In this document: positions 42,171-54,639 of the stretch, in pieces
Numbering within the stretch: position 1 is the stretch's first letter
Layout: every line of letters begins with the position of its first letter
Assembly (NCBI GenBank): GCA_905178155.1
Contig: CAJINV010000005.1
Location: 5,349,038 to 5,413,037 of the forward strand
Source of the DNA: Amoebophrya sp. A120
Taxonomy: Eukaryota > Protista > Dinoflagellata
Reading direction: 5' to 3'
DNA length: 64,000 bases
Notes under the pieces: model-generated
Seen by the model: the letters and a program-made list of their open reading frames with translations, nothing else
Databases searched by the model: none
What the model was told of the DNA's origin: nothing
Made by a program: the position numbers and the translations under genes

Positions 42171-45100
42171 ATGCCGTCGCCTTGTTCGCGGCATTTTTGT
42201 CGTGCCGGGCAACCACTCTCCTTACACGACCTGTTGCTCGTTCATTTTTTCTACTCGTTTTTGTTCTTCGGCAGCTTCGACGCACTCACCCCTTGGAAGT
42301 CGCCCGTGTTCATCTTCTCGGTGCCGTTCTTCGCCGCCGGCGCAGCTCAAGAAGATGCCACTACACTAAGGCGCCGCAAGACTGGAGATGATGTCGTGCA
42401 GGATCATCTTAATGCTGCAAGACGACTGGAGGCGGAAGCGCAAGTAGTTGCAGCAGGAGCAGCTGCACCCCCACTGATGAACATGTACATGGCGGCACAA
42501 CCCGCGACGAAGAACCCATGCGAGCTCGCAGCTGACGCTGGACAGGATGGAGCAGGTGGAAGTACGACAATATCCCCAGCCGCAAAGCAGGCCGGTGTGG
42601 ATTTGGACGATTTGAAGAACCCAGAAGTCGATGCTGGCGCGTGCATAATATGAGAGTGCACAACTCCCCCTCCCCCTCATTAGTATTGCATGAACAGCAA
42701 TACAAGCACCAGCACACGTGGCGCCTGTGCATGACAAATTCACGTGCCTAGTGTAGTAATGTTTGGGCTTCGGGAATCTGTGATGCAAACAGTACCAAAG
42801 GGAGGCGCTTGGATTTCGAGTTTTGCATGACAAATGAGGGGGAGGGGGACTTATGCACTCTCATACATAAACGCCGCGTACTCCACGATCTTCGACGAGG
42901 AGAGGCACGGCGGAATATCCCCTGAAAATGAACCATCCCCATCCAATTTCTCATGCAAAACATGAAGGAAATTCTCTGTTTGTCATGCAAAAAATGGATG
43001 GGGATCATGGTTAATTTTCAGGAAATAGGGAAACCGAAATGCTGCTAGTCACCTCTGGGTGAGCTGGGCCACCGAAAGACTGCGGAACAAGGAGGTCGAC
43101 TTCGATCGGTGGCTGGACTTGATGCGGAATTTCTGTCCGGTGTCGGGTTCACCACTGGGCGGCGGCGGGAACGTGATTAGATGGAATAGCGTACCACAAG
43201 AAAAAGTGTTAACGTTAACGGAATTTGTCATGCAGTAATGCATCAGAAAAGGTGCCCACATTTGTATTGCGTAGCATGCATGGAAGGCAAAATTTGTAAT
43301 GCTTAGCTGCCAACTGTGAAAACCGTTAACACTCTTTTGCTTGATATAGCGGGCCCCAGGACCGACACCGCCTGCGGTCAGTCGCCAAAAGCGATACAGT
43401 ATGAACTGCAAATAAAGTATCGTACTCGTGGCAATCGCATTTATGCATGCCAAATCTCTTTTTCAAGGTAAATCAGCATGAAAAATTCCATTTGTCATGC
43501 TGAGCAAATTTGTAATGCGCTTACTACAAGCTACGATGCTTTTGCACTTCATATACAGACGGGCAGGCCATTCCGCCGGGAGAAACGCACCACTGTTGCG
43601 TTCTATGAATTGCAAAAATGTCTAGGTCTGGAAGATTGCAGCTTGTCATGGTAAATCTGAAGCATGCAAAAGTCTGTGTTGCATGAGTTCCAAAAGCTGT
43701 CCACTTTTGACCAAGTTGGAACGGAGTTTCTCATGCAGAAAAGGCATGGCAGAGGCCTCGCAGAGTCTGCCATGCTAAGTCCCGCATTCCAGACCTCATG
43801 GGTCATGGAAAATCTGCATGACAAGTTGCAATCTTCCAGACCCAGACATTTTTACACTTGATACGTTCCCTGCGTCTGCGATATGGACACGCACGTACGG
43901 GTGGATACCTGGGTATGGAAGCGTCAGGTTTGAAATCGTCAAAGTTGAAATAATTTGTAATGCATAAAATGCATGACCCGCGGCACGTGTGTTGCAGAGC
44001 AGGCAAGTGAGGCCGATTGTAAGCCTGTTTGGGGTTACAGCTCGAGCTGCTAAAGTAGCATGAGAAAGTCGCCCTTCTTTGCCTAAACAGCATGACAGAG
44101 TGGATTTAGGGACCACCGAAATTTGTCTTGCGCCACTTGGAAACTGGGTTCGTTCCAAGTGGCATCCATTTTATGCATCACAAATCATTTCCACTTTGAG
44201 GATTTCCATTCTGAGGGTGTCATACTGGGTTCCGAAAGACAAAAACCAGCAAAGTCTGATCCCGGCGGACTACAAGGGCGGGCAGGTGGAAGGAATATGC
44301 ATTGCAACAGTATCGTACTGGTAGTATGAATCGCATTACAAATTTGCTCAACATGACAAATCATGGAACTTGTCATGCTAAACTACCTAAGAACAAGAAA
44401 CCAGGCTTGTCATGCTAGTTTGGCATTTAAGTATACGAATACGATACTTTTGCAGTGCATAAGGAAATCCCCTCGCGAATTCGGAGTTGGTACTCTACGC
44501 ATTGGTGATCCGGGACCCGTGCGCGGCGCATTCGGAGCAGTCACACGCAAGGAAGAAGCTGCATTGGCTCACTGGAGATGGCGAAGATGATGAGAAGAGC
44601 GAGACGAGCAGTAGTACAACTGCAACTGGTAGTGGCACGACTTCTTCTTCGCAGAACAATAAAAACCATCGAAAGGCTACGGAAAATAAAGTGGAAGAAA
44701 AACTGGACGTCATGATGGCAATGGCAGGAACATCATCTTCAAAAAAGCAGTACAGCCCGGCTCCGGCGATCCTCTGCGAAGACGATGCGAAAAACCCGGG
44801 GAAGAAAGGTTTAGAACCAGAAAAGACGGAGAGGAGTGAAAACGGTTTTGTGGTCATTGGCCTGTACTTCCCGACAAGTTCCTCTTCTTCTAACAATGCT
44901 GCAGCTTCCTCCACAGGTACTAGTACTAGAGCCGACGGTGGTGCGGGACGAGTGGCGGATGATGCTTCAAGGACCGCAGACGAAGCTTCGAGTGTGGAGG
45001 AATGTCAGCAGCGGCAAGCCGGGGGCTGTGCCACCAGCGGCATGGGAGCCATTTTCATTCAGGCCGCCTGCCTCGGTTTTGCGCCTGACGCACAGATTAC

Positions 45101-47134
45101 CGCAACAATCGCAGACGATTTTTGGACCATGCCGAAAGCACAATGTGAATCCAATCTAGCCGACAAGTGTTTCGACAACAAGAAAGAGGGCCAAGACAGC
45201 GGCTCTCAATTTCTGGAACTAGACCACATGAATCTGGCTAGCTACCACATCGCTGGGAGGGCGCATCTGGTAAAAAAAGGAGGATATTTTGTTTTATTTC
45301 GCGTGATGTCCTGCTGGAGGAGTGCTTCGACTTCACATATTACGGCACAAAAATTGAAATTCTGCCTTGCATATTGTAAGTACATAAATTATGAAAATCC
45401 GATCAACCTACAAACACACGACGACCACCAGGTGTACCAAAGCACTCCTTCCCGTGCCACTGTCGTTCTTCGCGGAAAATCTTCTACGCAAAGCAAGACA
45501 CTCGTCGAAACACAACTCGCCCAAGCGTCGTCGTTGTTGCAGGACCGGACATTGTTGAAAGAGCATCGCGTACGGAAAGAACTTTCAGAAAAGAAGATGG
45601 CGACCCGCTATCCAGGGCGGATTCGGACGAACATACAGAATTCCAACCCAGAGACGCCCGCCAGTGTGGTGAGAGGGGAGACGAAACTGGCGAAGGAACA
45701 TGAAAATAAATACGAGAAGGCGATGACCACAGGGGGACCCCAAGCCGAAGCAATAAACCAGCAAGACGCTCCTGCCGGAACATCAAGTGGTGACATCAAG
45801 GAAAACGAGTTTCTCCGAGGACGTAGAGGTTTGGCGAAGGACACAGTTCTTAGGAGTGGCTTCGACATCAAACAAGATGCCCGCCATCACGACGACGACC
45901 TCCGTGTCCGTGCAGCGGAGTATGATGCAAAAGAATACTATGCGCAACCTGCCTCCACCTCATCCAGCGACACCCGCAGCACCTTTTTCCACGGAGTGAA
46001 AACAAGCCTCCCCGCTTACTGGCTGCGGTTCCTGACGAGGTCCGGAAATAAGAACAAGCATGAAAACAACGAAGAGCACCAGAACAACAAACAGAGACAG
46101 AGAGCGACCTCTTCTGCCGAGGACAAAGTAGATCTTCATAGAACTTCCGCCTCTATATCGTATCTCCACACCCTCGTCTACTCTCTCCCTACCGGCTGTG
46201 GGACGACGACCAATTCGGGCGAAACTACAACTCTCGAGCAACAAGCTGCCTGTTTCGAGAAGTTCACAAAACAAACCCTGACACCGACCCTGAAGAACCA
46301 TTTATTTCCATCTGACGGAAATAAAGTAGCGAAGGAAGCGCTGGAGAAGGTGTTTCTGCTGTTCGACGAAGGTGGATCGTCTTCAGCAGGCGCTGGTGAC
46401 CGTCGAGTAACTTTCCGCGTTTTGGAATTAGACGAGGAAATCATGTTTGGGGATGCAAGCAAAGAGTTATGAAATGCAAATATGTCTGGGTCTGGAAGCA
46501 TGGAACTTGTCATGCTGTTTTTGGACTCTAAAAAAATTTGTATTGCATGACCAGCAAGAGGGGCACAGTTTGTGCTACACGGACAGGTGCATCAGGAAGC
46601 CCTCTAAAAGTCTGCGATGCTAGGTCATGCATTACAGGCGTCATGGGTCGTGAGAAATATGCATGACTAATCTTGTGCTTTTCTTCCAGACCGAGACACT
46701 TTTGCAATTCATAAGAGTTGTTCATGAGCAACCTTTATGTACAACCGGAAGGCAGCAGCACTAGTGGTCCCGGCGATCCAGCTTTTTTTCCTCCATCCAA
46801 CACCGACGATTCTTCCTCCGAAACCGAGAACACGTTCCTGTTGCTCTTCTTCATCGTCGCAGCCGGGCTCGGCCTGTACGGGTTGCTACGGCGACGGATG
46901 CTGAACATCGGGAAGATGAACGTGCGAAGATCTACTTCAAGCGGGCAGTTGGCCGGGACTTCGAGCAGCGCAAAGTCTCCTTCCTGTGCTTCCAAAAGCA
47001 GTGGAGAATCGAGCACTGCGCCCATGGTCGTGCAGATGAAGAAGACGAGGAGCAGCAGCGGTGCTGCTGGTCGAGGTGGAGCTGGTTCGACAAGTAGCAC
47101 AGGCGCGTCCGTTATTGGGCGTCGCGAGGAGTAG
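42171..47134 (+). CDS. Cys-rich type-I membrane protein, paralog A; 9 exons
   Basis: Hydrophobic N-terminus; GNRNAASHLW, NFCPVSGSP, HHCCVPCVCD, YALVIRDPC, NGFVVIGL, SGMGAIF; C-terminal TM FLLLFFIVAAGLGLYGLL-RRR; eight elements removed in frame. Confidence 0.8.
42649..42865. mobile_element. TIR intron element F1
   Basis: DR cataa/cataa. Confidence 0.9.
42916..43027. mobile_element. TIR intron element F5
   Basis: DR cggaa/gggaa. Confidence 0.85.
43192..43346. mobile_element. TIR intron element F7
   Basis: Starts TAC; DR tagcg/tagcg. Confidence 0.88.
43400..43553. mobile_element. TIR intron element F2
   Basis: DR tacag/tacag. Confidence 0.9.
43604..43863. mobile_element. TIR intron element F3
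   Basis: DR cgttc/cgttc; joins HHCCV-PCVCD. Confidence 0.92.
43914..44224. mobile_element. TIR intron element F9
   Basis: DR ctggg/ctggg; closely similar to 58097. Confidence 0.9.
44296..44461. mobile_element. TIR intron element F2
   Basis: DR aggaa/aggaa. Confidence 0.9.
46468..46713. mobile_element. TIR intron element F3
   Basis: DR agagt/agagt; joins KE-LFM (uninterrupted in paralog B). Confidence 0.9.
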
Positions 47135-47959
47135 CAGGGGTTGAAGCGGGTGGAGTTGTGAAATGAGGATTGAGGCGCAGCAGCAAATCAAAAACAGTGG
47201 AAGATGATGAATAAACGAGATCGAGATATTGAAAGAAATGATGCGTACCAAGTATGATCATAAATGATCGCTCCCTAGTACTACTACAGCCTTGTTTTTA
47301 GTGGGGACCGAAAGTAGAAGAAGATATCGAGAAGCATGTTGTTTGTGTTTGTAGATTTTGGTCCTCGTCCAGGACACACAAGGCGACAAAACAAGGCCAA
47401 CAGATGAACGGCGGACACAGAAGTTTTAGCGCAAGCGAAGGGTGTATGAATGTTGTGGTCACGCGGCCATGCATGCGTCGCTGTTGTGCTCTTGTCACCG
47501 CGCAAGCGCAACAAAATTGCAATTTTTACTAGGTAAACAACGTAGTTTTGATTTGAAAGCTGCCTTGGGAACAAGTAAGTAAGTAGATGCTCCAGTCTGG
47601 TGCGCTAATCAATCCTGCTCCAGGCCGCGCTTCCAGCGAACAACAGAAAACCAAGAGCCTTAGCAAGGGCTAGGTACAACCAGATAAACGAAGCAAGAGG
47701 GTGGAGGAGGAGGAGAGACAGAGCGAAGAAATGAGCACAGCCCCTGTAAATATCGGGGAGCAGGAGTGCCAGTAGGTGTGTATGGTAGAGGACGAGTGGG
47801 CCGCCGCGGTCTGGACACCATGCAGGCGAGACCTGCCCACCTGCTGTGATTATTTATGCGTTTTACGGGCAGCTGCACATGCTACGCCGTGCTTACCAAG
47901 GTAGTATGTAACAAAGTTGTCCTTATTTTGTTTCCAGCACCGCGCACGGGCACGACATC

Positions 47960-50900
47960 ATGTCGCGGCATTCACGGCACATCCCGTCCTGGCTCGTCTC
48001 GTTGCCGTTTGCCTTGCGTCATGAGCTCCTGTGGTCTCGACAGCTTGTCTATCCAGGAGAAAACACCCATCCCCAACCAATTTTTGCATGACAAACACTG
48101 GAGCTTGTGCATGTTTTGCATGACACATTGGATGGAGGTGGGTGTTTTTGTCTGGATATTGTCGCCGCGCAGGACGACCGAGTGGTGGTGGAGCCCAAGA
48201 CAGGCTCGGCGCCGCCAGAGCAGCAGGCCGGCGGTGCTGGATCTGCACCTGAGCCACAACCAGAAAAACTCGTGCTCGTGGATGCAGGAGCGGAGGCGAA
48301 AAAAAGGGCGGAGCTATCCGTTGTGGATTTGAGTACAAAAATCACATTCACCGCAGCCACGTGCTCAATTTGCAAATGCAATTCGCAATCGCAACGCCCG
48401 CGGAAGATCAAATAAACGAAGCAAAGTAGTAAGTACGTAGTTGAGTTCAGATTTCATCGCATTGCAACATTGCAGATTGATGCGAGGTCGTTGCGGTGTA
48501 ACCGTGATCCCGGTTTTCCCCTGGAGAAGAATGCGACCAAGCGGGTTTCACCAACGACGCCACTGGAGAGTGCATCAGCCAGGGGTATGACACAGTGTTC
48601 GACACTATCACAGCAAAAAGTGTCAACGTTAACTGCATTTGTGATGCAGTAATATGCATCACAAAACCTCCTGCCCAAAATTTGCCATGCATAGAATGCA
48701 TGCTAGGCAAAATTTGCCATGCATATTTGCAATCTATGAAAACCGTTAGCGTTTTTGTTTGATAGACACCGCGCACGGCAGCAACCGCAACGCCGCCTCG
48801 CACTTGTGGGTCTATCCTGTGCAAAAGTATCGTATTCGTATTGCAAATCTTGCATTACAAATCTTTTTGTTAACTCAAATCCGCATTACAAAATTTATTT
48901 CTCATGCGGAGAAAATTTGTAATGCATTCATACGAATGCGATACTTTTGCAGTTCATAGGGTCACCTATCTGACAAACAAGTTTCGGGACGAGACCATCG
49001 AGTCGGCGGAGGTGTATCTGCGGCAAATGACGAACTTTTGCCCGGTGTCGGGCTCCCCGCTGACCAACGGGGGGATGCAGTTGCAGTACTCAAATTTGAT
49101 ATAGTACCTACAAGAAACTTGCGGTGACAGTAGTTCTTGGAGGAGTTGCTACTTGTGCTTCTTCTAGAGCTTCAACTTCTCCATCTCATCGTAATTTGAT
49201 GTTGTAGAAGATGATAGTAGGACAAGTCTTGCTCCTCAGAGTCAGAGTTTCGGATTGATGTTGTTGTACATCCTTTTTATCATTCTTCACCCAATGCAGG
49301 TGGACCGCGCCGGCAACCGGTTCTGCTGGTTCCTCGTCTTCCACCTACGGCATCCAACCCGCAGCGTCGGGTGTCACCGTACCCGGCGGCTACTCGCACC
49401 ACTGCTGCGTGCTATGCATTGCAAATCTGTCTGGGTCTGTGCGATATTCATATTTGTTTTTGTATTTATTGCAGCACTCGCAACATACGCATACCCCTGA
49501 TGAACCCTGTGATGCATGTTGTGGAATAGCGCCAACCCTCTGTCATGCAGGGACGCGATATCTGATGCGGGTTACGCACATCAACCACAACATAGCGGCT
49601 CATAATTTTTTTCCTCATGCGTGGCGGCGTATAATTGAAATCGGTTTGCGATGCATGTACTAGCATCCCAACTTTCACCAGACCCTGACGTATTTGCAAT
49701 CCATGCGTGCCCTGCGTTTGCGATATGAACACGCACGTGCGCGTGGATGAGTGGACGCCCAAGAACAAGGACAACGTAGCGCTGCTGAAGAACCACGGAA
49801 CGGTAAAGGATAAAGAGGCAGCTGGCACGGTGTACGCTCTTGTGATTCGGGACCCCTGCGCAGCGAATAAGAACGACTCCGCAAAAGCAAAACTGGCGAA
49901 ATTGACGGGCGGCCCCGCGCCGGCAATCATCTGCGATGGGGAAAAATTTTATGCAATACAAATTTTCCGTACATGTACAAAATGCATCACAAATGTCCCC
50001 AATTTGGAGTGTGATGAAACTTGTCATGCTAAACTAGCATCGAAGCCAAGTTTTGTCATGCAGAGACCGCATTTGTACGTCTACGTGTACAGGAAATTTA
50101 CTGTGGAGAAATTGAAGGCCGGCGAAGTGGAAACTAGCGACAACGGGTTTGTCGTCATTGGTCTCTACTACACCCAAGCCGCTGGCTATCGCAAGAAAAA
50201 AGTGTTACAGTTACACACTGTCTTGCAGGTCAAGCAAGACAGAAAAGCTCTGTCATGCCGGATATGCATAGGAGCCTCTTTTCATAGGTGTTTTCCCGTA
50301 GGATTTCTGCATTCCAGGTTTTCTCTCTCATGCAGGGACATTTGTGTTGCTGAATTGCCTACAGATGTGTAACGGTAACACTTTTTTCGTGGGATACTGG
50401 CCAGTCCGAAACTGCGGAGGCCGCGATGCCGCAGACCGAGTGCGCCGCCCGGTCCTCCGCTGGCTGTGCGCAATCCGGGATGGGAGCCATTTTTATACAA
50501 GTATTAAACTAACAGTACTAGTAAGTACACGTCGCCTGCCTTCCTGTTGTACCGGTTTTTGTGGAGGTGAAACTACAAGCGTGACAAACTAGATTACGAC
50601 ACACGTATCAAACACCGAATACTCCTTACTCATGCAAATGAACATGCACACCGAATACTCCTTACTCATGCAAATGATCATGCAAATGAACATGCACACC
50701 GAATACATCATGCAAATGAACATGCACAACATGATGGTTTCAGGCCGCCTGCTTGGGTTTCGCCCCAGATGCGAGTGGTGCTGCAACGGCACAGAGGAGA
50801 AAAGCTACAGGCTCAGACAGCTTCTGGAGCATGCCCGACGAATATGAAAGTGCACAGCTTTCCCTTCTCCTCATCTGTCATGCAAAAAAACCACCTTTTT

Positions 50901-53900
50901 GCTTTTGCCTCTTGGCACTGTTTGCATGACAGGTTCTGGTACTAGCGGCCCAAACAGCATTTAGAATGATCCTGGACGAATTTGTGATGCGAAACCGGCA
51001 TAATTCTTACTAGCGCTTGTATTGCAGGCCATGCGGACGGGGCGGGTTCTTGTGCACTCTCATAACGAGTGCGCAAACCAACTGAAGGACGAGTGTTTCA
51101 ACGACCACTCGAGCTCTTTCCTTGAGAAAATGGACCTGGATATCCCAGAGAGAAAACAAAAAGCAGGCCGGGCATATTAGTTTTTAATGCAAAAATCGAT
51201 ACACGCAAAGTCTCTTCTCATGGGCGGCCCCATAGCATGCTGCTTAAGATATGCAATGCAGTATTCATTTTTGCATTACAAAGAAATTTGATCCTGCCTG
51301 CTTTTTTCTGTGTGATACTGGAGAAATTGAACTTGGCGGCCTATGAATTCGCGGGCAGGATGCATAAGGTACTTACAGCTTTATTTGGTGATGTAGAAAA
51401 TTGAAATTCTGTTTCTGCATTGCAAATCTATCCTAGTAGTTGCAGTACAAATTTTGTCAAGCGGAAAAGCGGAATTCAATGTGTAATGCTGGTTCAGATG
51501 GGAAACTACTTACTTGCATAGCTGGAAATTCTACGCCAGCGTTTGTTTTGCATTGATTAGTTGTGCATGATAAAAACTCCACGGACGATGATCAATTCTT
51601 CGCAGGAATAAATCAAAGCTTATTGTCCTCTCTTTACCTGCTCAGGCCTTTCAAAGCCACATCACCCACGCGGCGGCCGTCATTCGGGGAACGAGTTTTA
51701 TGTATGACAGTGCACAACTCCCGCTCTCCCTCATTTGTCATGCGAAATACCCAACTCCACGCTTTCCCTCCTGTCACTATTATGCATGACAAGTTGTGAT
51801 AGCCCAAATAGCACTCTACACTCCAGTGCAAATTTGTCATGCAAAACCGGCACTCTTGCTGATCCTTGGTTGTACTATTGCCGTTCATGCAATACAAATG
51901 GGGGGGGAGGGGGAGTTGTGCACTCTCATATTATGCAGAGCAAGGACAAGATCGCGGCAAAACTTGGGGTATGATCTGCAAAAGTATGGTACTGCTCGTA
52001 CTAGCTGTATTGCAATACAAATTAGCTCAGCATGACACATGGAATTTGTCGTGCTGATTTACTTAGCTTGAGAAAGAATAAGAAACAGAAACTTGTCTTG
52101 TATGACAACTGCGATTAGTACGAGTACGCTGCTTTTGCACAGGATACGGGGAGGCCAGTTCTCTGCTGGATGGCAACCGCCAACTGCTCCGCGAGCACCG
52201 TTATCAAGTGCAAATACGTAGTATGGGTCTGGAACATCATGACAACTTGTCATGCCAAATCTGAGTCATGCAAAATTCTGTGTTGCATGCTTACAAAAAG
52301 CCGTCCATTTATGACCAAGTATGACGAATTTGCAATCCATAACCGCGTCTCGAAGCCGAACGCGAACCATTTTCCGGGAAAAATCCTGCCGGCGGTGAAA
52401 AAGACCTCCAAAACTTCATCTTCTTCCACGCAGAACAGCGACGGCAGTAGCAACCTCGCAGACGACGAAAAATCCGAATTTTTGCGCGCGCGGCAGCTGG
52501 GCATCAAGTCGAGTAGTTCGAGTCGAGCATCTTCTACCCGCCATTCCGCGTGGATGCTGTTTCTGCAGAAAATTGCGTTCGGGACGAACAAGTTAACAAC
52601 CACAGCACGACGATCGAGATCGTTGACGAAGTCAACTACATCCGGAGATAATGACAGCAGCAGCAAAGACAATGACAATGTTGACAAACCCATTTACCAC
52701 CACACTCTCGTGTACTCCATCCCCACGAACTGCGACAAATCTTTACCCCCTTCGGCGACGCGGGAGGAGAAGGAACTTTGCTTCAACAAGTTTGTCGAGG
52801 AAACTTTGAAGCCGACTTTGGAACAGTATCCACAATAAGTTTACCGTACACGTACAAATGCGGTCTCTGCATGGCAAAACTTGACTTCGATCCTAGTTCA
52901 GCATGACAAGTCTCACACTCCAAATTGGGGAAATTTGTGATGAATCTTGTACATGTTGTGCGGGAAATTTGTATTGCATAAACAGCAACTACTGTTCACG
53001 ACGGATGAAAGTGAAAAGAAACAAAATGATTTGGAAAAGATCTTTCCACCGGAATTAGCGGGTCGTGACAACACGAAAAACAAAAAGACGACGAACAACC
53101 TGTCGCTGAGAGTGTTGAAGCTGGGTGAAACCATCATGTTTACTGCGGAAAGGGAGGAGAAGGAATTGTTCATGACCGAAGTCGGGAAAAACGACGAAGA
53201 GGGATCAACTTCCAGCAACACGGCAGATGACCTGGAAAACACGGTTTTGATGCTCTTCTTCGTCCTCGCGGTGGGATTCAGTCTGTACTTCCTGCTGAAG
53301 AGAAGGTTCGCGAACTTGATCAGCGGTGGAGAGGGTGCAAGCAAAAACTACATCTTCGGAGCTTCTTCTTCTTCCTCTTCTTCTGCCGCGGGGTACGGGG
53401 TTGATGACAAAACATCCTCTGCCGGGGCGGGGAACAAGTCGCCATCTCTTTCGTCCAAAAGCACGAGCAGTGGCGAGAGTACGGCGCCCATTGCGAAATC
53501 GATGGTGACAGGACGATATGAACTGCAAAATCATCGTACTAGTAGCTGTAATTGCAATACAAATTAGCTCAGCATGACAAATTGAATTTGTCATGCTGTT
53601 TAACCTTGGGATGGAGATTTGTAATGCAGGACTGCGATTACTACGAGTACGATACTTTTGCACAGGATAGACGAAATGGAGGGACGAAGCGGGAAGTTTT
53701 AGCAGGGAAGAAACATCTCGGCGGCCCGGGGGATCAAGAAGCGGTATGGATTGCAAAAATGTCTGGGTCTGGAAGAATGCAGGAGTCTGTCATGCAGATT
53801 TTGCATGACCCATGAGGTCTGTGATGCATGCCCTAGCATCAGAGATTGTGCGAGGGCTTTCTGATGCTCATACCGCATGAGAAATGCCCTCTCCGCGTAG

Positions 53901-54093
53901 CACAAATTACACCTCTTTTGCTCTTCATGCAATACAGTTTTTATGTAGATTCCAAAAGTAGCATCACAAGTTGTATCCTTCCAGACCCAGACACTTTTAC
54001 ATTTGATAAGCGGCAGTGATTGGAAACACGAATGTGGTGCAACGCAGTGAGACCCAGCGGATCGGTGGGGCGGAAAGTAAAAATCGCCTTTAA
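47960..54093 (+). CDS. Cys-rich type-I membrane protein, paralog B
   Basis: Same motif order as paralog A (SNRNAASHLWV, NFCPVSGSP, HHCCVPCVCD, YALVIRDPC, SGMGAIFIQAACLGFAP, HTLVYS, TM VLMLFFVLAVGFSLYFLL-KRR); introns near 48320-48530 and 51370-51600 unresolved. Confidence 0.78.
48050..48158. mobile_element. TIR intron element F5
   Basis: DR ttgtc/ttgtc. Confidence 0.9.
48606..48764. mobile_element. TIR intron element F7
   Basis: DR gacac/gacac. Confidence 0.9.
48813..48958. mobile_element. TIR intron element F2
   Basis: DR gggtc/gggtc. Confidence 0.9.
49086..49299 (+). other. Canonical GT-AG intron
   Basis: gtact...pyrimidine tract...tgcag; joins MQLQ-WTAP, aligning with IRWNS of paralog A. 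Confidence 0.7.
49413..49705. mobile_element. TIR intron element F3 (diverged)
   Basis: DR cgtgc/cgtgc; ends ATG; joins HHCCV-PCVCD. Confidence 0.88.
49950..50109. mobile_element. TIR intron element F6 (inverted relative to 19818)
   Basis: DR aattt/aattg; ends AGA. Confidence 0.85.
50187..50396. mobile_element. TIR intron element F4-like
   Basis: DR ctggc/ctggc. Confidence 0.9.
50501..50743 (+). other. Canonical GT-AG intron
   Basis: Joins IFIQ-AACLG, contiguous in paralog A. Confidence 0.85.
50613..50728. repeat. Intronic minisatellite
   Basis: Reiterated caccgaatactccttactcatgcaaatgaacatgca units. Confidence 0.8.
50843..51064. mobile_element. TIR intron element F1
   Basis: DR acgaa/acgag. 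Confidence 0.85.
51141..51317. mobile_element. TIR intron element F8
   Basis: DR ctgga/ctgga. Confidence 0.9.
51703..51930. mobile_element. TIR intron element F1
   Basis: DR ttatg/ttatg. Confidence 0.9.
51970..52146. mobile_element. TIR intron element F2
   Basis: DR tgggg/cgggg. Confidence 0.85.
52202..52341. mobile_element. Internally deleted F3 element
   Basis: Left F3 end intact, right ccagacccagac block missing; DR accgt/accgc. Confidence 0.8.
52827..52980. mobile_element. TIR intron element F6
   Basis: DR aacag/aacag. Confidence 0.9.
53517..53669. mobile_element. TIR intron element F2
   Basis: DR gacga/gacga. Confidence 0.9.
53745..54008. mobile_element. TIR intron element F3
   Basis: DR agcgg/agcgg. 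Confidence 0.9.
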
Positions 54094-54222
54094 GAAGGTA
54101 GGAAAAGGAGGGGCGTTGTAAGACGCCGAACCGACGAGCCACGCGTCCATTGAACCGGGCCACACTTCAAGTAGTATAAAAATCTTGTGATGGTAAAAGC
54201 AGAAGGAGTAAGTGGCACAAGC

Positions 54223-54598
54223 TGTAGATGAATTCCGTTGAAGATGCAAACTCGTGGCGAAGGAGGTCGAGCAGTATCAATGTAGAGAAGTTGTAGATGT
54301 ATCAAATGTAAAAATGTCTGGGTCTGGAAGAATGCAACTTGTAATGCGTATTTCAGAACACAGAAAAGTCTCTCATGTATACGTAGCAAAAGCTCCCACT
54401 TTTTGTCAGAAAAATAGGGGACTTGTCATGCGGATTCGGCATTGCGGAAGGTTCTCGAAACCTGTGATGATAGAGCTTCCATGCCAGACCTTCTGTGTCA
54501 TGCAAAAACAGCATGACCCTTTCAGACCCAGACATTTTTGCATTTCATAAGATGAATTCCGTTGAAGATGCAAACTCGTGGCGAAGGAGGTCGAGCAG
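54223..54598. repeat. About 52-bp direct duplication, second copy interrupted by an F3 element
   Basis: tgtagatgaattccgttgaagatgcaaactcgtggcgaaggaggtcgagcag at 54223-54274 and again at 54292-54299 plus 54555-54598. Confidence 0.9.
54300..54549. mobile_element. F3 element downstream of the stop codon (probable 3' UTR)
   Basis: DR agatg/agatg. Confidence 0.9.
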
Positions 54599-54639
54599 GG
54601 CCTTCTGAGTATCTTTTCATCAATTTCTGTTTCAGTTTT

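What the first reader, a model, noticed from the sequence alone, without database searches (positions are those of the whole stretch)
43599..49710. Same-nucleotide insertion in both paralogs with co-varied direct repeats
Seen: both paralogs carry an F3 element at exactly CCV-PCVCD (43604 and 49413). Both DR copies read cgttc in A and both read cgtgc in B, and the element interiors are strongly diverged. The other element positions I resolved are not shared. Either two independent insertions hit the same base (site preference, or homing-like replacement), or one ancestral insertion had its DR pair changed in concert, implying DR identity is selected or actively homogenised.
Basis: partly seen in the sequence, partly recalled or inferred. 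Interest (0 to 1): 0.75.

Follow-up and report, generated by a model that had tools for sequence, protein, structure and literature searches.

The report
Two jumping introns hit same base
Two old duplicate genes of a marine parasitic protist each carry a transposon-like intron at the identical base, but the two introns belong to different subfamilies and differ greatly in age, so their matching flanking repeats most likely come from a later, separate insertion rather than from repeats evolving in step.

Summary
Observation confirmed. The window is Amoebophrya A120-type DNA (both spliced proteins equal annotated A120 proteins), full of introner elements (TAT...ATA inverted ends, 5-nt direct repeat, DR). 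Paralogs A and B share exactly one element site (8 and 14 elements), with DRs CGTTC/CGTTC and CGTGC/CGTGC differing at a synonymous Val position. The two elements are not sisters (AU p=0.022; different starred subfamilies). A's is young (89% identical to relatives, tip 0.09); B's is old (68%, tip 0.68); the paralogs are near saturation at four-fold sites (46 of 73 differ). So A's element postdates the duplication and its DR is most simply a fresh target-site duplication. DR mismatches are common (97 of 390 elements), favour third codon positions and rise with age, which argues against strict homogenisation. No sequence preference explains the reuse; chance gives 3-4% per such pair (0.2-0.8% for F3 on F3). 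Best reading: parallel gain (0.67). Open alternative: an ancestral site refilled in place with concerted DR change (0.2), because B's element is about as old as the duplication.

The parts
43604..43863 (+). F3 introner element in gene A (young subfamily; TAT...ATA, about 47-nt terminal inverted repeat)
43599..43603 (+). upstream 5-nt direct repeat of A (CGTTC)
43864..43868 (+). downstream 5-nt direct repeat of A (CGTTC)
49413..49705 (+). F3 introner element in gene B (old, other subfamily group; ends ATG)
   Evidence: spanned whole by a DNA-run contig
49408..49412 (+). upstream 5-nt direct repeat of B (CGTGC)
49706..49710 (+). downstream 5-nt direct repeat of B (CGTGC)
42171..47134 (+). gene A, 1046 aa, 8 introner elements and 1 GT-AG intron; no Pfam family above cut-off in the exon tested
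   Evidence: (equals P0154)
47960..54093 (+). gene B, 839 aa paralog, 14 introner elements, 1 decayed element, 3 GT-AG introns
   Evidence: equals P0001
45270..45431 (+). GT-AG intron of A, position shared with B 51369-51645 (likely ancestral)
   Evidence: skipped in X3 contig
48315..48527 (+). decayed element in gene B whose two DR copies differ at 3 of 5 bases (GGAGC/AGAAT); removed in the annotated protein

Best explanation
Both paralogs carry an F3 introner at the same coding base, and this is most likely a parallel gain: an old F3 copy sits in gene B, and a young copy of another F3 subfamily likely inserted much later into the empty homologous site of gene A, duplicating A's own five bases, so that each DR pair matches its own gene without any concerted change. 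Shown: same site, different subfamilies, different ages, near-saturated paralogs, tolerated DR mismatches. Inferred: MITE-like DNA insertion with a 5-bp target-site duplication; removal from the transcript with one DR copy; that A's site was empty (never filled, or precisely emptied) when the young copy arrived; that the coincidence came from chance helped by local clustering of insertions 30-80 nt apart.
For: Tree of 16 window F3 copies: A groups with 59464 and 62748 (99/98), B with another group (95/91), AU p=0.022 against A+B. Tree of 172 copies: A tip 0.088, nearest 89%; B tip 0.68, nearest 68%; 169 of 170 other copies are closer to A than B is. Paralog four-fold sites differ at 46 of 73 (d about 1.7, 95% range 0.93 to saturation), far older than A's element. 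A shows no B-like segment (B ranks 153-167 of 171 in five segments) and 0 of 172 copies are clear subfamily mosaics, so in-place conversion is not evident. Filled/empty paralog pair in L007 shows the same pattern arising without concerted change: both DR copies read GGAGG, the empty paralog AGAGG. DR mismatches: 97 of 390 elements have one or more; rate 22 of 281 at third versus 17 of 504 at first/second codon positions, p=0.009; rate rises with tip length, rho 0.16, p=0.035, 167 of 172 rows; 4-5% per site equals half the nearest-neighbour distance. Gene B itself holds an element with 3 of 5 DR bases unequal. Close-strain protein fragments indicate presence/absence differences of elements in these genes (P0007, P0008, P0059). 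Spacing: 29 of 75 window gaps are 30-80 nt against 5.5 expected; A's site lies 45 coding nt from both neighbours.
Against: Exact same base, same family and same orientation has only 0.2-0.8% chance per pair, halved again for orientation. B's element is the oldest of 16 unbiased window copies (tip 0.61) and its age is compatible with the duplication (about 0.85 per lineage, at least 0.46), as an ancestral site would predict. The duplication postdates the A25 split (A+B 100/99; AU tests of the alternatives p=0.08), so an ancestral TAT-type element is possible. B keeps a perfect DR despite its age, and DR divergence is 2-2.5 times below distance to subfamily consensus (4-5% against 10-13%), so some constraint on DRs is not excluded. 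No sequence preference explains the reuse. The A splice junction itself was not displayed in RNA contigs.
Confidence: 0.67

Rival explanations
1. The site was filled before the duplication (B keeps that element); in A the old interior was replaced in place by a young F3 copy (excision and gap repair from an ectopic copy through the shared inverted ends, as recalled for P-element replacement), and both DR copies changed at the Val wobble base through compensatory selection or copying.
For: B's element is about as old as the duplication; duplication postdates the A25 split; same family at both sites follows naturally; DR divergence is below interior divergence from consensus; in L021/L030 an F3 element and its flanks form a 433-nt identical run, the longest by two-fold, in copies that differ at 247 of 5088 aligned bases, as a conversion tract would.
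Against: Needs two matched DR changes where parallel gain needs one; no B-like remnant in A and 0 of 172 mosaics; no elements abutting at a shared DR among 272 gaps (smallest 13 and 26 nt); the apparent copying of flank bases into element ends seen in the window (6 of 8) did not replicate outside it (7 of 23, 6.5 expected); L021/L030 may be an assembly collapse.
Confidence: 0.2
2. Two independent insertions guided to this base by a real hot spot that is not in the primary sequence (nucleosome linker or DNA shape kept in the most conserved motif of both paralogs).
For: Strong 30-80 nt spacing peak; linker bias reported for introners generally (PMC9860276 passages); parallel gains were about half of new Daphnia introns (PMC4202315 passages).
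Against: Position weight matrix from 71 sites is nearly flat (at most 0.11 bits per column, bias 0.03); only 1 of 8 A sites is shared; neighbouring elements, which would set local phasing, differ between A and B.
Confidence: 0.09
3. One ancestral insertion inherited vertically by both paralogs, interiors simply diverged, DR pair changed in concert.
For: Same site, family and orientation; A-B interior identity of 49% fits saturated neutral sites.
Against: A is 88-89% identical over its full length to at least four other copies and nested in a 31-copy starred clade without B; AU p=0.022. It would require A to be the source of a whole subfamily.
Confidence: 0.03
4. Assembly artefact at repeats.
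For: Elements are highly repeated and break short-read contigs.
Against: A DNA-run contig spans B and both DRs with 0 differences; removal of element plus one DR restores both full reading frames. No listed contig spans A.
Confidence: 0.01

Closest known systems
Amoebophrya A120 introner elements (Farhat et al. 2021, PMC7789003; sections 10, 11, 12, 16 read, plus passages)
   Same: Non-canonical introns with terminal inverted repeats starting TAT, seven variable bases, then three A, and short direct repeats at the junctions; host proteins are the annotated A120 proteins.
   Different: The paper gives DRs of 3-5 nt (most abundant four); here a 5-nt DR directly abutting TAT...ATA fits 59 of 76 window elements exactly. 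In the sections read it compares intron positions between A25 and A120 orthologs, not between paralogs, and does not treat DR co-variation; supplements were not read.
Parallel intron gain (fungal introner-like elements, PMC4457414; Daphnia pulex, PMC4202315; passages read)
   Same: Unrelated new introns at homologous positions, argued from the youth of one intron against the age of the genes.
   Different: Here both introns are TIR/TSD elements of one family, at the exact base, in tandem paralogs of one genome, and not GT-AG; the fungal cases fall within a 15-bp window across species.
MITE-like TIR DNA-transposon introners (PMC9860276, PMC12130899; passages read)
   Same: TIRs, target-site duplication, random orientation (9 plus, 8 minus of 17 window F3 copies), no coding capacity.
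   Different: No co-opted GT-AG splice sites; no transposase partner identified here.
P-element replacement by gap repair (recalled; search returned no paper that I read on it)
   Same: Would put a different family member at an occupied site.
   Different: Keeps the old target-site duplication, so it does not by itself change both DR copies; no remnant or mosaic found.

Membership tests
Amoebophrya A120 introner element | terminal inverted repeat of 8-20 nt or more joining both intron ends | tested here: met
   both elements fold into a terminal stem
Amoebophrya A120 introner element | motif TAT + 7 variable + AAA | tested here: met
   both 5' ends and A's 3' end match; B's 3' end has one terminal change
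Amoebophrya A120 introner element | 3-5 nt direct repeat at the junctions | tested here: met
   5-nt DRs
Amoebophrya A120 introner element | repeated family in the genome | tested here: met
   17 F3 copies in the window; very high contig depth on A in a DNA run
Amoebophrya A120 introner element | removed from the mRNA without GT-AG | tested here: inconclusive
   frames restored and annotated proteins matched; X3 contigs (RNA by guess) skip the 46468 F3 element and begin a piece at B's 3' junction (49704), but neither shared-site junction was displayed whole
Parallel intron gain | same homologous position | tested here: met
   column 782 in both
Parallel intron gain | the two introns are not descended from one insertion | tested here: met
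   for the interiors:
Parallel intron gain | site empty in the common ancestor or before the second insertion | not testable with these tools
   no genome or ortholog DNA reachable
MITE-like TIR transposon | target-site duplication shown by an empty homologous site | tested here: met
   L007 filled and empty paralogs carry two and one DR copy; window 54221-54274 against 54300 element
MITE-like TIR transposon | autonomous transposase partner with the same ends | not tested
   no search made beyond a blank scan of viral contigs for the end motif
Homing or in-place replacement | long specific target sequence or remnant of the former occupant | tested here: not met
   flat target matrix; no remnant, no mosaics
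DR homogenisation system | DR copies stay identical regardless of age; paired changes exceed single ones | tested here: inconclusive
   mismatches common and rising with age, yet 2-2.5 times below interior divergence from consensus; paired changes in orthologs not testable

The most novel reading that the evidence does not exclude
Amoebophrya introner sites turn over in place: young family members replace old occupants at the same base, and the two 5-nt direct repeats are kept equal by selection for splicing or by copying between the junctions. The genome's non-canonical introns would then be old positions with renewed sequence, and DR identity would be part of the unknown splicing signal.
Probability: 0.2. 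Interest if true: 0.75.

Novelty: new member of a known kind. Interest (0 to 1): 0.36.

Why it matters
If parallel gain, it is a clean, base-exact case that a shared intron position between paralogs need not be ancestral, and it shows that equal DR pairs are the default product of insertion. If the in-place turnover reading held, it would change how intron age is read in this lineage and would point at the DR as part of the still unknown mechanism that removes these non-GT-AG introns. Side results bear on that open question either way: DR mismatches are tolerated, TAT/ATA ends are the most conserved bases (31 deviations in 2142 sites), DR position 5 comes from the downstream copy in the cases that could be read, and elements cluster 30-80 nt apart.

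Tried and rejected
Copying of flank bases into element ends (suggested by B's ATG and 6 of 8 window cases): not replicated outside the window, 7 of 23 against 6.5 expected; overall 13 of 31, p=0.08. Sequence target preference: nearly flat matrix from 71 sites. Recent conversion tract between A and B around the site: synonymous differences there (5 of 8 four-fold codons, read) match the gene average. Insertion next to old elements at a shared DR: none in 272 gaps. DR mismatch against age over all families: no correlation (rho 0.03, p=0.53, 366 of 393 rows, rows with three or more mismatches or no alignable neighbour dropped); within F3 a weak one; both are reported. Dating the duplication before the A25 split, which would have excluded an ancestral element: it came out after the split. 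No run is on record as an RNA holder; raw RNA runs X9 and X10 did not cover the genes, uninformative. A closer RNA view of the two junctions was not obtained, so which DR copy supplies position 4 stays open. Pfam gave nothing above cut-off. Earlier scan findings: none returned. Paralog pairs in fetched loci were too few (L007, L021/L030) to measure a coincidence rate.

Full report
Setting. The window is rich in 110-330 nt elements that begin TAT, end ATA, have terminal inverted repeats and are flanked by a 5-nt direct repeat. I curated 76 by end homology, not by their DR; 59 have identical DR copies, 14 one mismatch, 2 two, 1 three (after correcting one boundary). Removing element plus one DR restores long frames. 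Gene A (42171-47134) equals annotated protein P0154 and gene B (47960-54093) equals P0001, both named Amoebophrya sp. A120 by their source. The anatomy matches the A120 introner elements of PMC7789003 (sections 10-12 and 16 read; supplements not read, and its Figs S19-S25 may bear on DR length).

Observation. Confirmed in full: same nucleotide in HHCC-V-PCVCD, same orientation, DRs CGTTC twice and CGTGC twice, differing at the Val wobble base; 1 shared site among 8 A and 14 B elements; one GT-AG intron is also shared. A DNA-run contig spans B unchanged. Contigs of run X3 (RNA by guess) skip another F3 element of gene A and the GT-AG intron, and a gene B contig piece begins at B's 3' junction; the two junctions in question were not displayed whole.

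Are the elements sisters? No. Among 16 full-length window F3 copies A joins 59464 and 62748 (99/98) and B another group (95/91); AU p=0.022. In a 172-copy tree A has tip 0.088 and 89% nearest identity, B tip 0.68 and 68% (B is flagged as a long branch, so its exact place is unsure, but its distance from A is not). A has no B-like segment and no copy is a clear subfamily mosaic (0 of 172).

Ages. Four-fold sites differ at 46 of 73 codons between A and B (d about 1.7; 95% range 0.93 to saturation). A's element is therefore far younger than the duplication. B's element is the oldest of the 16 unbiased window copies and could be as old as the duplication. The protein tree puts A and B together against the A25 ortholog P0041 (100/99; AU of alternatives p=0.08; 31 rows), so an ancestral A120-type element is not excluded by speciation timing.

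Is DR identity enforced? Not strictly. Of 390 elements 293 are perfect, 60 have one mismatch, 15 two, 22 three or more, the last partly boundary errors. In 157 elements with an assignable frame, mismatches were 6 of 269, 11 of 235 and 22 of 281 at codon positions 1, 2, 3 (p=0.009), as expected if an exonic and an intronic copy drift separately. Within F3 the rate climbs from 3% to 10% per site with tip length (rho 0.16, p=0.035; 167 of 172 rows); over all families no trend was seen. The level, 4-5%, equals half the nearest-neighbour distance but is 2-2.5 times under the distance to subfamily consensus, so the answer lies between neutral decay and mild constraint. Gene B itself has a decayed element with 3 of 5 DR bases unequal that the annotation removes. 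A hint of copying into element ends did not replicate. In L007 a filled site has both DR copies alike and different from the empty paralog's single copy: co-variation without concerted change.

Why the same base? Sequence preference is nearly nil. Elements do cluster: 29 of 75 window gaps are 30-80 nt, 5.5 expected, and A's site is 45 coding nt from both neighbours. Randomisation gives a shared site in 3.2% (uniform) to 4.2% (local) of trials, 0.17-0.8% for F3 on F3; the local figures are upper bounds since they are centred on the observed pair. For a pair selected by eye from a genome with about 30,000 elements this is within reach of chance, but it is not a comfortable fit, and B's age favours an ancestral site by roughly an order of magnitude (inference from 1-2 of 16 old copies).

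Mechanism, by inference. A young F3 copy inserted by a MITE-like DNA route into an empty A site and duplicated CGTTC; B's older copy carries B's own CGTGC. This needs one synonymous change and one coincidence (0.67). The rival, replacement in place with both DR copies changing, needs no coincidence but an unobserved replacement and two matched changes (0.2); P-element replacement is recalled as a precedent, not read. A non-sequence hot spot gets 0.09, simple inheritance 0.03.

Known and new. The elements are described (PMC7789003; also passages of PMC12130899). Parallel gains are described for fungal introner-like elements and Daphnia (passages); linker bias for introners generally (passages of PMC9860276); 4-nt TSD introners in Symbiodinium (passages of bioRxiv 2020.10.14.339549). 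Four searches (listings and abstract starts only) showed no paper on shared sites between Amoebophrya paralogs or on DR co-variation. Verdict: a real, base-exact reuse of one site by two F3 subfamilies, most likely parallel gain; new member of a known kind; interest 0.36, with a 0.2 chance of a more surprising in-place turnover.

Noticed in passing
L021:932-1364 against L030 (reverse strand): Two copies of one gene differ at 247 of 5088 aligned bases, but an F3 element and its flanks form a 433-nt identical run (next longest 218), while a nearby ordinary intron is heavily diverged: a conversion tract centred on the element, or assembly collapse.
   Followed up: partly
window, all 76 elements; also 272 gaps in window plus loci: Neighbouring elements are spaced 30-80 nt far more often than chance (29 of 75 against 5.5), none closer than 39 nt in the window, with a dearth at 100-240 nt: local targeting or a minimum exon size.
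   Followed up: partly
window 49945-50114, 52197-52346, 48310-48532: Where DR copies differ at position 5, the mRNA or annotated protein uses the downstream copy (X3 contig ends; P0001), and in L063:5758 position 1 must come from the upstream copy to avoid a stop: the cut likely lies inside the DR.
   Followed up: partly
window 54221-54274 and 54300-54599: A roughly 50-nt tandem duplicate lies just upstream of the 54300 F3 element and carries its junction as an empty site with one DR copy.
   Followed up: no
157 elements with an assignable frame: Insertion phase is skewed: the DR starts at codon position 3 in 79, position 2 in 45, position 1 in 33.
   Followed up: no
genes A and B, residues about 95-340 of P0001: The host domain (motifs NRNAASH, FCPVSGSP, CCxPCxCD, SGMGxIF) has no Pfam match but 193 relatives across genomes and metagenomes: a widespread uncharacterised cysteine-rich domain; Val at the CCx position occurs only in A and B.
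   Followed up: no
P0006, P0007, P0008, P0046, P0059 against genes A and B: Fragments from a close strain share some elements (48813, 50843, 51141, 52202), lack the one at 48050 and appear to have others absent from the window: ongoing presence/absence polymorphism. P0059 implies a different base in the downstream DR of the 52202 element.
   Followed up: partly
window 52202-52341: A 140-nt internally deleted F3 copy in gene B belongs to the subfamily of A's element (77% interior identity).
   Followed up: no
F3 ends, positions 4-7: The same few variants (CAAA, GCAT, GGAT, GAAA) recur at both ends in every subfamily, as if these bases were hypervariable or exchanged independently of the interior.
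   Followed up: no
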